From the NCBI RefSeq assembly GCF_009914755.1, contig NC_060930.1: a stretch of DNA of 64,000 nucleotides, one strand, 5' to 3'. This stretch comes from the human T2T-CHM13v2.0 reference genome, Homo sapiens. This document shows positions 16,755 to 19,740 of this stretch, one piece after another; the first letter of the stretch is position 1; every line of letters begins with the position of its first letter. The notes under the pieces are model-generated. The model was not told the origin of the DNA. It made no database searches and was given only the letters and a program-made list of their open reading frames with translations. A program made the translations under genes and the position numbers.

Positions 16755-17410
16755 TTGTGGAGATGGGGTCTTGCTATTTTGCCCAGGCTGGTCTCAAACT
16801 TTGGCCTCTTGCCTTGGCCTCCTGAAATGCTAGGATTACAGGTATGAGTCACCATGCCTGGCCTATATTTATTTTCTTACTTATTGTTTTTCTTCCCCTC
16901 CTAGAATGTGGGTTCCCTGAGGTTAAGGACTTCATCTCCTTTATTCACTACTGCATTCTCCAGATACAGCCTAGAGCAATACTTCACATGCAGGAGATGC
17001 TCAATGAGTAACTGTTGAAGGAATGGATGCTGTGTCCCAGAAGAGACCTTAGAGGTCGGACCTGGTCTGGTCTCAATTCAGAGAAGGACCAGGCTGTCAT
17101 CACACATTAAGTGAGTGGTGGAGCTGGGACAAGAATCTAGGTCTCCTTTTTCTTGTCCACTGCTCTTCCCACTCTTCTCCGTTCTGTGCATAGGTGAAAG
17201 CTCAACACCATCAATTGATAATTAAGTAAAATAATGGGGAATAGGATTGAATGTGTTCCTGAAGGTTTTGCTAAATAAAACGATACTGCTCTTTTAATCT
17301 ATGAATTGATTATCCAAAGCAAATGTCAACGGTGAGTAGAAGGCAGCAAGGCATGAGTTATTGTAACTGATAAAGCAGGGGTGGCGCAGTGCGGGGTTGG
17401 TGGGGAGGTG
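16755..17410 (-). repeat. Left arm of 656-bp inverted repeat (derived copy)
   Basis: Reverse complement of 19085-19740; no mismatch found by eye; contains a truncated FLAM, an L2 end, MIR-like and unique sequence. Confidence 0.97.
17194..17331 (+). ncRNA. Mirror copy of the 138-nt exon-like cassette, in the left arm
   Basis: ctcttcccactcttctccgttctgtgcatAG|GTGAAAG...GTCAACG|GTgagt; stops in all three frames. Confidence 0.35.
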
Positions 17411-17584
17411 GTTTAAAATTGGCTAAACACACTCTCTGGTGTAGATATTTATAAGAATATTTATAAAGCTTACATAACCACTTCTAGATCATGGTTTCCT
17501 AATTAGGTTCTTTCAAATGCTGTCCATGCTGCCTAGAGTGATATTAAACTACACAGAGGTATATCATAGTGGTTATGCAGAATT

Positions 17585-17893
17585 ATTTTATTTTATTATT
17601 ATTTTTTTTTTTGAGATGGAGTCTCACTCTGTTGCCCAGGCTGGAGGGCAGTGGTGAGATCTCGGCTCACTGCAACCACCACCTCCCGGTTCAAGTGATT
17701 CTCCTGCCTCCGCCTCCCGATTAGCTGGGATCACAGGTGCTCGCCACAATACCCGGCTAATTTTTTGTATTTTTAGTAGAGACAGGGTTTCACCATGTTG
17801 GCCAGGCTGGTCTCGAACTCCTGACCTCAGGTAATCCACCAGCCTCGGCCTCCCAAAATGCTGGGATTACAGGTGTGAGCCACTGTGCCGGCC
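17585..17893 (-). mobile_element. AluS
   Basis: Full dimer; TSD cagaattatttta. Confidence 0.95.
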
Positions 17894-17954
17894 CAGAATT
17901 ATTTTAAATTAGAGATATAACTTTCTGACATATCCTGCCTATACATTTGACATC

Positions 17955-18180
17955 TTTGTACAACATGGTAACTATAGTTAATAACAATGTATTGTATTGT
18001 ATTCTGAAAATCACTAAGAGTAGATTTTAAGTGTTCTCACCACAAAAAAAATAAGTATGTGAGGCAATGCATATGATAATTAGCTTAGTTTAGCCATTTT
18101 ACAATGTATACATATTTCAAAACATTATGTTATATATGATAAATATATACAGTTTTGTCAATTAAATATTAATTTTTTAA
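17955..18180 (+). mobile_element. L1MA-type 3' end fragment
   Basis: gagtagattttaagtgttctcaccacaaaaaaaataagtatgtgagg...ttagccattttacaatgtatacatatttcaaaacat. Confidence 0.8.
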
Positions 18181-18378
18181 AATTAACCTCTTAAACCCCT
18201 CTATCATTCCAATCTATCATATTGCTGGAGAAATTGTGGAAATATGCAAATAAAATAACACAATTTTTGTTTTAGTTTGCCTACCATCTCAATGTCCAGC
18301 CATTACAGAAAATATATTTGAATAGCGTACAGAGAAAGGAAAGCACATGAAAACAAGGTGGCAAAAGAAATGACCTGG

Positions 18379-18673
18379 GGCCGGGCGCAGTGGCTCACGC
18401 CTGTAATCCCAGCATTTGGAAGGCTGAAGTCACTTGAAGTCAGTAGTTCAAGATCAGCCTGGCCAATAAGGTGAAACCCCATCTCTACTAAAAATACAAA
18501 AATTAGCTGGGCATTGTGGCACATGCCTGTAGTCCCAGCTACTAGGGAGGCTGAGGCAGAAGAATTGCTTGAACCCAGGAGGCAGAGGTTGCAGTGAGCT
18601 GAGATTGCGCCACTGCACTCCAGCCTGAGTGACAGAGCAAGACTCCATCTCAAAAAAAGAAAGAAAGAAAGAA
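18379..18673 (+). mobile_element. AluS
   Basis: Dimer with a small left-arm deletion; TSD aaagaaatga(c/t)ctgg. Confidence 0.95.
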
Positions 18674-19084
18674 ATGATCTGGGAACCTAGGGAGTTGTTT
18701 TAGCTTAATTAAATTATTTTAGCAGAGCAGAGTTTACTAAAAAGCATGGTGAGGGATGGAACAAGGAAAGGGATGGAAGAAGATGTGGGTGGAGAGCATT
18801 CTTCTCTACATGCATTCTCTCTGCAAAAGGAGCCTAAGCCCCTTCACAGAAGAGAGATTTACTTTCTGGGCTTTGTAGGTTAGACACTGGCTTTATTAAG
18901 AGTGGCTCTTGGAGCCACTGCTCAGGTAAAGAACACAATGAAAGGGGCCATTGAGCAGAGCTGCTAGGACCAACCCTCCCCTGTTAATCAAAGGAACAAA
19001 CTGAGTTATTTACCAGAGTCATTTACCTTGCAGACAACTCAGACCATTGTTCCCTGGGGCAGGATGATGACTCACTTGATCAAT

Positions 19085-19740
19085 CACCTCCCCACCAACC
19101 CCGCACTGCGCCACCCCTGCTTTATCAGTTACAATAACTCATGCCTTGCTGCCTTCTACTCACCGTTGACATTTGCTTTGGATAATCAATTCATAGATTA
19201 AAAGAGCAGTATCGTTTTATTTAGCAAAACCTTCAGGAACACATTCAATCCTATTCCCCATTATTTTACTTAATTATCAATTGATGGTGTTGAGCTTTCA
19301 CCTATGCACAGAACGGAGAAGAGTGGGAAGAGCAGTGGACAAGAAAAAGGAGACCTAGATTCTTGTCCCAGCTCCACCACTCACTTAATGTGTGATGACA
19401 GCCTGGTCCTTCTCTGAATTGAGACCAGACCAGGTCCGACCTCTAAGGTCTCTTCTGGGACACAGCATCCATTCCTTCAACAGTTACTCATTGAGCATCT
19501 CCTGCATGTGAAGTATTGCTCTAGGCTGTATCTGGAGAATGCAGTAGTGAATAAAGGAGATGAAGTCCTTAACCTCAGGGAACCCACATTCTAGGAGGGG
19601 AAGAAAAACAATAAGTAAGAAAATAAATATAGGCCAGGCATGGTGACTCATACCTGTAATCCTAGCATTTCAGGAGGCCAAGGCAAGAGGCCAAAGTTTG
19701 AGACCAGCCTGGGCAAAATAGCAAGACCCCATCTCCACAA
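19085..19740 (+). repeat. Right arm of 656-bp inverted repeat (probable donor copy)
   Basis: Reverse complement of 16755-17410; the FLAM tail, FLAM TSD and host L2 continue beyond 19740. Confidence 0.97.
19164..19301 (-). ncRNA. Candidate internal lncRNA exon (138 nt, non-coding)
   Basis: Long polypyrimidine tract plus AG acceptor at 19303-19302; ACG|GTGAGT donor at 19163-19158; typical exon size; stops in all frames. Confidence 0.5.

What the first reader, a model, noticed from the sequence alone, without database searches (positions are those of the whole stretch)
16755..19740. 656-bp apparently perfect inverted repeat around a 1,674-bp spacer: recent inverted duplication and ready-made flip switch
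Seen: 16755-17410 is the reverse complement of 19085-19740. I found no mismatch or indel by eye, and the arms are a patchwork (FLAM, L2 end, unique DNA), not two copies of one TE. Seen: at the right arm the FLAM keeps its tail and TSD and the L2 continues past 19740. The left copy is cut at the FLAM tail and has no TSD, so the left outer junction is the new one. Established: identical inverted repeats mediate recurrent NAHR inversions and are homogenised by gene conversion. TSD-less inverted duplications are typical products of replication template switching (FoSTeS/MMBIR). Inference: a very young, perhaps human-specific, structure whose spacer (17411-19084) may segregate in both orientations. 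Unverified recollection: the sizes resemble InvFEST inversion HsInv0061 on 6q21, so the inversion itself may already be catalogued.
Basis: partly seen in the sequence, partly recalled or inferred. Interest (0 to 1): 0.8.

Follow-up and report, generated by a model that had tools for sequence, protein, structure and literature searches.

The report
Catalogued human inversion HsInv0061 locus
The perfect 656-base inverted repeat pair on human chromosome 6 is real, but it is the breakpoint pair of a small polymorphic inversion that is already catalogued (HsInv0061), seen here in its common, ancestral orientation.

Summary
Window 16755-17410 is the exact reverse complement of 19085-19740 (656 of 656), around a 1,674-bp spacer. 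No other copy of the non-Alu part of the arm exists in T2T-CHM13.

Sizes, chromosome, repeat content and assay probe sequences match HsInv0061 of Giner-Delgado et al. 2019. That entry is a 1,674-bp NAHR-class inversion with 654/656-bp repeats in an lncRNA intron.

An in-silico BglII self-ligation shows that this assembly carries orientation O2. The paper gives O2 as ancestral and at 98.7% frequency. GRCh37/38 carry the rare derived O1, at 1.3% overall, 3% in Europeans and 0 in Africans. Porubsky et al. 2023 list the same interval as a "GRCh38 misorientation".

Two parts of the interpretation fare less well:
- "Recurrent flip switch" is not supported. The paper infers a single origin, no recurrence, and no inverted allele in the chimpanzees and gorillas genotyped.
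- "Very young, human-specific" and "FoSTeS/MMBIR" remain untested. The primate analysis left the repeats out, and the junctions show no microhomology.

Verdict: real, well read, already known.

The parts
16755..17410 (.). Left arm of the inverted repeat (breakpoint 1 of HsInv0061). It is the derived, truncated copy.
   Evidence: 656 of 656 identical to the reverse complement of 19085-19740. It starts inside the Alu-like element, without the element's tail or a second target-site duplication.
17411..19084 (.). 1,674-bp spacer, the segment inverted in HsInv0061. Here it is in orientation O2. It contains a nested inverted Alu pair.
   Evidence: The size equals the catalogue entry. Porubsky 2023 Table S4 gives CHM13 chr6:107897410-107899085, which is window 17410-19085. 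The O2 call comes from in-silico iMLPA. The Alu pair is 17599-17832 versus 18432-18665, 81-87% complementary.
19085..19740 (.). Right arm of the inverted repeat (breakpoint 2 of HsInv0061), the source copy.
   Evidence: Its Alu-like element continues across 19740 into the flank, and the candidate target-site duplication lies outside the arm.
19632..19767 (+). The repeat boundary at 19740 cuts through it.
   Evidence: Local alignment to the full Alu at 15660-15965 covers 19627-19750. 19619-19629 and 19757-19767 match at 10 of 11 bases (read).
16754..16755 (.). The novel outer junction of the left arm.
   Evidence: No homology between the left and right outer flanks. 0 bases of microhomology and no flanking direct repeat.
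16157..16617 (.). Complex TA/CA array with a self-complementary 26-bp unit (12.2 copies at 16208-16525). It ends 137 bp left of the novel junction. It is a candidate trigger of the duplication, by inference only.
   Evidence: Tandem Repeats Finder. Many 160-224-nt self-complementary pairs. DNA folding energy is -154.6 kcal/mol against -32.2 (sd 4.0) for 30 shuffles.
13277..13282 (.). BglII site 'A' of the published genotyping assay.
   Evidence: The right half of the O1 probe matches 13281-13307 uniquely.
17657..17662 (.). BglII site 'B' inside the spacer, used by the published assay.
   Evidence: The left half of the O1 probe matches 17659-17685 on the minus strand, uniquely.
20111..20116 (.). 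BglII site 'D' of the published assay.
   Evidence: The self-ligation junction of fragment 17658-20111 equals the published O2 'DB' probe pair.

Best explanation
This is the locus of the catalogued human polymorphic inversion HsInv0061 on 6q21.

Anatomy and origin of the repeat:
- A 656-bp stretch of mixed unique and old-repeat sequence (right arm, 19085-19740) was copied once.
- The copy was inserted in reverse 1,674 bp upstream (left arm, 16755-17410).
- It was truncated inside an Alu-like element and has no target-site duplication.
- The result is a small low-copy inverted repeat inside an intron of the lncRNA LINC02532.

The inversion:
- According to the published population data, homologous exchange between the arms (NAHR) flipped the spacer once.
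- That gave the derived orientation O1. It is rare, 1.3% overall and absent from the Africans sampled, but it is the one assembled in hg18, hg19 and GRCh38.
- T2T-CHM13, this window, carries the ancestral and common orientation O2.

What is shown and what is inferred:
- Shown here: the exact repeat, its uniqueness in the genome, the direction source to copy, the identity with HsInv0061, and the O2 state.
- Taken from papers: the polymorphism, its frequencies, the single origin and the ancestral state.
- Inferred: no functional effect beyond turning 1.7 kb of intron.
- Inferred: the copy arose either by a template switch at a stalled fork or by break repair with blunt joining.
- Open: the age of the duplication.
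For: The repeat:
- Exact repeat and 1,674-bp spacer.
- Only two copies in the assembly.

The catalogue entry. Supplementary Data 1 of Giner-Delgado et al. 2019 (PMC6748972) lists HsInv0061 as:
- hg18 chr6:107275246-107275899 / 107277574-107278229.
- Inversion size 1674.
- Class NAHR, ancestral O2, origin Unique.
- hg18, hg19 and hg38 all O1.

The orientation of this window:
- Both halves of the published O1 probe occur once each in the window, at BglII sites 13277 and 17657.
- A simulated BglII digest and self-ligation of the window as it stands gives the published O2 'DB' junction.
- The same simulation after flipping 17411-19084 gives the O1 'BA' junction.
- Independent check: Porubsky et al. 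2023 (PMC10150506), Table S4, lists GRCh38 chr6:106721331-106723005 = CHM13 chr6:107897410-107899085 (window 17410-19085). Strand-seq reads were 361 to 0 on CHM13 and 0 to 364 on GRCh38.

Published population data:
- Outgroups: O2 in chimpanzee, gorilla, orangutan and rhesus.
- Derived O1 frequencies: AFR 0, EUR 0.030, SAS 0.006, EAS 0.011, total 0.013.
- Single origin, 0 recurrence events, 0 in chimpanzee and gorilla.
- Effect listed as 'Inversion of part of intron' of an lncRNA. This fits the hub's gene table, in which the intron runs 14361-20645.

Direction of copying:
- The Alu-like element and the candidate target-site duplication run across the right boundary only.
Against: Nothing found contradicts the identification. 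Four loose ends remain.
- hg18 has arms of 654/656 bp at 99.7%, while this assembly has 656/656 at 100%. The arms therefore vary among haplotypes. 654/656 is itself 99.7%, so the hg18 difference may be one 2-bp indel. I could not see hg18 sequence.
- Porubsky et al. 2023 prefer to read their 26 such intervals as GRCh38 assembly errors, because 0 of 82 haplotypes had the GRCh38 orientation.
- That RP1-60O19.1 equals LINC02532 is inferred from position. No paper in the library holds both names.
- The origin mechanism has no positive sequence signature. Microhomology is 0 bases at all junctions.
Confidence: 0.93

Rival explanations
1. The inverted repeat is old, shared with apes or even Old World monkeys. 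Its arms are identical because gene conversion between them keeps them so, as in sex-chromosome palindromes. It would then be neither young nor human-specific.
For: - All four outgroup species have the spacer in the same orientation as this window, so an old repeat is not excluded.
- The published primate analysis left the repeats out, so nobody whose work I could read has shown that the left arm is absent in apes.
- The arms differ between haplotypes, 100% here against 99.7% in hg18. That fits ongoing exchange.
- One crossover event, the inversion itself, proves that the arms do recombine.
Against: - Without conversion, 0 differences in 656 bases has probability 0.02 to 0.0004 at 6 million years and below 1e-8 at 28 million years. 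Frequent conversion would therefore be needed.
- Crossovers between the arms are rare: 0 recurrence events in 480 unrelated people and none in the chimpanzees and gorillas typed.
- The boundaries are sharp, with no diverged homology beyond them.
Confidence: 0.4
2. The orientation in GRCh37/38 is an assembly misorientation, not a real allele. There would then be no polymorphic inversion here.
For: Porubsky et al. 2023 found all 41 samples (82 haplotypes) in the CHM13 orientation. They file the interval under 'GRCh38.miso' and call errors the more likely reading for such intervals.
Against: - Giner-Delgado et al. 2019 typed 547 of 551 samples by iMLPA.
- 97 genotypes were checked, with 0 errors.
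- They found heterozygous O1 carriers in CEU, TSI, GIH and JPT.
- At a frequency of 0.013, the chance of seeing no O1 among 82 haplotypes is 0.34, so the two studies do not conflict.
Confidence: 0.06
3. The repeat arose together with an inversion, by staggered breaks at one end (the model proposed for Drosophila inversions, recalled). The left-arm/spacer junction would then be the ancestral one and the spacer/right-arm junction the new one.
For: The layout, inverted duplicates flanking a segment, is what that model produces. No junction has microhomology, which fits breakage and blunt rejoining.
Against: - The spacer has the same orientation as in four outgroup species.
- This model therefore needs either an origin before the macaque split or a second, restoring inversion.
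- I found no repeat element that crosses either inner junction to decide the matter.
Confidence: 0.08
4. One arm is an assembly artefact of T2T-CHM13.
For: None found.
Against: - The same two arms and the same 1,674-bp spacer are in hg18, an independent assembly.
- The published assay fragments fit the window exactly.
- The whole structure is 3 kb, shorter than the long reads behind such an assembly (my knowledge, not tested).
Confidence: 0.01

Closest known systems
HsInv0061 (InvFEST; Giner-Delgado et al. 2019, Nat Commun 10:4222)
   Same: Chromosome 6q21, spacer 1,674 bp, arms 654/656 bp, repeat content, intronic in an lncRNA. The published BglII probe sequences match uniquely. It is the same locus.
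   Different: This assembly has orientation O2, whereas hg18/19/38 have O1. Its arms are 656/656 and identical, whereas hg18 has 654/656 at 99.7%.
'GRCh38.miso' interval chr6:106721331-106723005 (Porubsky et al. 2023, Genome Biol 24:100, Table S4)
   Same: The same spacer. The CHM13 coordinates equal window 17410-19085.
   Different: It is filed there as a probable reference error. The earlier genotyping shows a real allele at 1.3%. I saw no link between the two records in the passages I read.
HsInv0040 (chr2, same study)
   Same: Short inverted repeats of unique sequence plus transposable-element pieces (755/756 bp, 99.9%), a small inversion (3,589 bp), NAHR class, ancestral O2, single origin.
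   Different: Another locus.
Recurrent NAHR inversions between larger inverted repeats (for example HsInv0278, HsInv0114, HsInv0344 of the same study)
   Same: Inverted repeats at both breakpoints and exchange within them.
   Different: Those have repeats of 1.4-24 kb and repeated origins. This one has the shortest repeats of the NAHR set ('from 654 bp') and no recurrence.
Inverted duplications from replication template switching (FoSTeS/MMBIR; recalled from Lee, Carvalho and Lupski 2007 and Hastings et al. 2009, not read here)
   Same: An inverted copy close to its source, no target-site duplication, and a hairpin-prone array 137 bp from the junction.
   Different: No microhomology at the junctions and no added triplication or deletion. 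Absence from outgroups was not tested.
Sex-chromosome palindromes kept identical by arm-to-arm gene conversion (recalled)
   Same: Near-identical inverted arms around a spacer.
   Different: Their arms are tens to thousands of times longer. Conversion is not shown here.

Membership tests
Catalogued inversion HsInv0061 | Position on 6q21 with two inverted repeats of about 654/656 bp around 1,674 bp | tested here: met
   against Supplementary Data 1. The CHM13 coordinates in Porubsky Table S4 equal window 17410-19085.
Catalogued inversion HsInv0061 | The published genotyping probes and BglII sites fit the sequence | tested here: met
   Each probe half matches once. The simulated self-ligation gives the O2 junction as the window stands and the O1 junction after flipping the spacer.
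Catalogued inversion HsInv0061 | Both orientations exist in people | not testable with these tools
   Only one human haplotype is at hand. From papers: O1 at 0.013 in 480 unrelated people. CHM13 and GRCh38 differ in orientation.
NAHR-mediated inversion | Highly identical inverted repeats at both breakpoints, with no gain or loss of sequence | tested here: met
   100% identity over 656 bases. Supplementary Data 1 lists no indels at the breakpoints.
NAHR-mediated inversion | Recurrence (repeated flipping) | not testable with these tools
   From the paper: 0 recurrence events, single origin. Recurrence is common in the class but not required for it.
Segmental duplication (usual definition, recalled: at least 1 kb and at least 90% identity) | Length of 1 kb or more | tested here: not met
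   656 bp. The paper also does not label these repeats 'SD'.
FoSTeS/MMBIR template-switch product | Inverted copy near its source without target-site duplication | tested here: met
FoSTeS/MMBIR template-switch product | Microhomology at the junctions | tested here: not met
   0 bases at each junction under either order of events.
FoSTeS/MMBIR template-switch product | Derived state: the copy is absent from outgroups | not testable with these tools
   No ape sequence is held. The published analysis excluded the repeats.
Two insertions of one transposable element in opposite orientation | Each arm is one element with its own ends and its own target-site duplication | tested here: not met
   The arms are a patchwork with unique sequence. 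The left arm has no flanking direct repeat.

The most novel reading that the evidence does not exclude
The left arm is a human-lineage novelty made in one step. A leftward replication fork stalled just before the hairpin-prone 26-bp palindromic array at 16157-16617. Its leading strand then copied 656 bases of the lagging-strand template 1.7 kb behind and returned, leaving blunt junctions. On this reading the arms are identical because they are young, not because of gene conversion. The structure has flipped only once since. One of the 26 published 'GRCh38 misorientations' is then a true rare allele that the reference happened to sample.
Probability: 0.3. Interest if true: 0.3.

Novelty: already known. 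Interest (0 to 1): 0.12.

Why it matters
It matters little beyond bookkeeping. The inversion turns 1.7 kb of an lncRNA intron. In the supplementary files searched for its name, the LCL and GTEx expression tables did not contain it, and its selection tests are listed as 'None' or NA.

Two small practical points follow:
- Anyone comparing T2T-CHM13 with GRCh38 here will see an inversion. GRCh38 carries the rare derived allele and CHM13 the ancestral one.
- An interval filed in 2023 as a probable GRCh38 misorientation coincides with an inversion that was genotyped in 2019 at 1.3%. It is therefore better treated as a low-frequency polymorphism.

The locus would be a clean small case for asking how short inverted repeats arise, and how often 656 identical bases recombine.

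Tried and rejected
- Repeat elements crossing the junctions, to decide which inner junction is ancestral. The left flank 16618-16754 and the spacer start 17411-17595 each found one weak match elsewhere in the genome, on chr5 and chr7. Those two loci share nothing else with the region. The spacer end 18670-19084 found only itself. No decision was possible.
- L2 continuity across the Alu-like insertion. Queries on either side and 6 fetched copies of the flank repeat gave 0 of 6 with homology running into the arm. Inconclusive.
- A query across the boundary was swamped by Alu matches. It was useful only for showing that Alu homology passes 19740.
- Rfam scan of 14000-21500: 0 matches.
- Literature on the origin or age of the repeats. 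3 papers hold 'HsInv0061'. In the passages and supplement rows I read there is nothing on it. Supplementary Data 5 gave only its header row.
- Vicente-Salvador et al. 2017 (Hum Mol Genet 26:567), the validation study cited for this inversion, is not held and may bear on the origin.
- The alias RP1-60O19.1 = LINC02532. No paper holds both names.
- A programmed switch in the bacterial sense was considered and dropped. Nothing suggests a recombinase or regulation, and the published data show one flip only.
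Full report
**Observation.** Window 16755-17410 is the exact reverse complement of 19085-19740. All 656 bases match, with no indel. 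The repeat finder gives 659 nt because it passes one inward mismatch. The spacer 17411-19084 is 1,674 bp.

Homology stops abruptly at all four ends. In the 64-kb window only two other inverted pairs of 250 nt or more exist, both Alu pairs at 83-85%. In the whole T2T-CHM13 assembly the non-Alu 551 bases of the arm occur exactly twice, as these two arms.

**Anatomy.**
- The right arm ends inside an Alu left-monomer-like element that begins at 19632. Its homology to a full Alu runs to 19750, past the repeat boundary at 19740. Other genomic Alus align up to about 19744-19772.
- A candidate target-site duplication brackets this element: 19619-19629 and 19757-19767, 10 of 11 bases. The second copy lies outside the arm.
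- The left arm begins abruptly at the matching internal point. It has no tail, no second duplication and no flanking direct repeat of 3-12 bases.
The right flank holds an old dispersed repeat at about 19855-20144, but none of 6 fetched copies extends into the arm.
- The spacer holds a nested inverted Alu pair.
- A 461-bp TA/CA array built on a self-complementary 26-bp unit ends 137 bp left of the novel junction. It folds far more strongly than shuffled controls.
- Rfam finds nothing in 14000-21500.
- By the hub's gene table, the whole structure lies in the LINC02532 intron between exons ending at 14360 and starting at 20646.

**Identification.** The term HsInv0061 occurs in 3 papers of the library. 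Supplementary Data 1 of Giner-Delgado et al. 2019 (PMC6748972; I read supplement rows and text passages, not the whole paper) lists HsInv0061 as follows:
- Position hg18 chr6:107275246-107275899 and 107277574-107278229.
- Inversion size 1674.
- NAHR class, ancestral status O2, origin 'Unique'.
- Orientation O1 in hg18, hg19 and hg38.

The effect is listed as 'Inversion of part of intron' of lncRNA RP1-60O19.1. That this is LINC02532 is my inference from position, because no paper holds both names.

The two halves of the published O1 probe each match the window once, next to BglII sites at 13277 and 17657.

**Orientation in this assembly.** The assay cuts with BglII, self-ligates the fragments and probes the new junction. 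I simulated this.
- With the window as it stands, fragment 17658-20111 gives exactly the published O2 'DB' junction, and no fragment gives the O1 junction.
- With 17411-19084 reverse-complemented, fragment 13278-18833 gives the O1 'BA' junction.

T2T-CHM13 is therefore O2.

Porubsky et al. 2023 (PMC10150506; Table S4 rows and text passages read) provide an independent check. They list GRCh38 chr6:106721331-106723005 = CHM13 chr6:107897410-107899085, which is window 17410-19085. Strand-seq reads were 361 to 0 on CHM13 and 0 to 364 on GRCh38, in category 'GRCh38.miso'.

**Published population and evolutionary facts.**
- O2 is found in chimpanzee and gorilla (experiment and assembly), orangutan and rhesus.
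- The derived O1 frequencies are LWK 0, YRI 0, CEU 0.025, TSI 0.034, GIH 0.006, CHB 0, JPT 0.022 and total 0.013.
- All carriers are heterozygous.
- 547 of 551 samples were typed, and 97 genotypes were checked without error.
- HsInv0061 is one of 3 of 24 NAHR inversions with a single origin. It has 0 recurrence events and frequency 0 in the apes typed. A 2026 imputation paper repeats 'unique origin' (one passage read).
- No age could be estimated.

[quoted passage not shown] They consider errors more likely than very rare alleles. For this interval, the earlier genotyping shows real heterozygous carriers. At a frequency of 0.013, the chance of missing O1 in 82 haplotypes is 0.34. The simplest reading is that the reference clone sampled the rare allele.

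**Mechanism.** Shown or published: a short low-copy inverted repeat, one homologous exchange within it, and a balanced flip of 1,674 bp. The 'flip switch' picture overstates this. 656 identical bases have flipped once in the sampled human genealogy, and not at all in the apes typed.

The origin of the repeat is inferred only. The orientation of the spacer equals that of four outgroups. The simplest history is therefore insertion of an inverted copy between 16754 and 17411 without turning the spacer.

A switch of the leading strand of a leftward fork to the lagging-strand template 1.7 kb behind would give exactly this order. The hairpin-prone array lies 137 bp ahead of that point. However, no junction has any microhomology. 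The MMBIR label is thus not earned, and break repair with blunt joining fits as well.

**Age.** With 0 differences in 656 bases and no gene conversion, the duplication would be younger than about 2.3-4.6 million years at 95%. This uses rates of 1e-9 and 0.5e-9 per site per year.

hg18's 99.7% equals 654/656, so the reference arms may differ only by a 2-bp indel. Gene conversion could give the same picture in an old repeat.

The published primate analysis excluded the repeats. The validation paper that might discuss their origin is not held, and I had no ape sequence. I put about 0.55-0.6 on a human-lineage origin and about 0.4 on an older, homogenised repeat.

**Verdict.** It is already catalogued, genotyped in hundreds of people, and noted in the T2T-versus-GRCh38 comparison. 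Novelty: already known. Interest is low. The only open points are the age and mode of origin of the repeat, which a simple alignment to ape assemblies would settle.

Noticed in passing
window 17410-19085 (literature cross-check): The interval that Porubsky et al. 2023 file as one of 26 probable GRCh38 misorientations coincides with HsInv0061. That inversion was genotyped in 2019 at 1.3% with heterozygous carriers. It is better read as a rare allele captured by the reference than as an assembly error.
   Followed up: partly
window 16157-16617: A 461-bp TA/CA array with a self-complementary 26-bp unit (12.2 copies at 16208-16525). Its predicted DNA folding energy is -154.6 kcal/mol against -32.2 for shuffles. 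It ends 137 bp from the novel junction of the inverted copy.
   Followed up: partly
window 17599-17832 and 18432-18665: A nested inverted Alu pair inside the spacer, 81-87% complementary and about 600-885 bp apart.
   Followed up: no
window 15664-16016: A full Alu whose poly(A) tail (34 A) runs straight into (AT)19. A further Alu 3' fragment at about 16055-16156 leads into the TA/CA array.
   Followed up: no
Supplementary Data 12 of PMC6748972: The first two listed tag SNPs of HsInv0061 lie at hg19 chr6:105.19-105.27 Mb. By my own rough coordinate estimate that is about 2 Mb from the inversion. They show r2 = 1 in a single column only. This looks like the long-range or chance tagging expected for a very rare allele. 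68 occurrences are listed, of which I saw 2.
   Followed up: no
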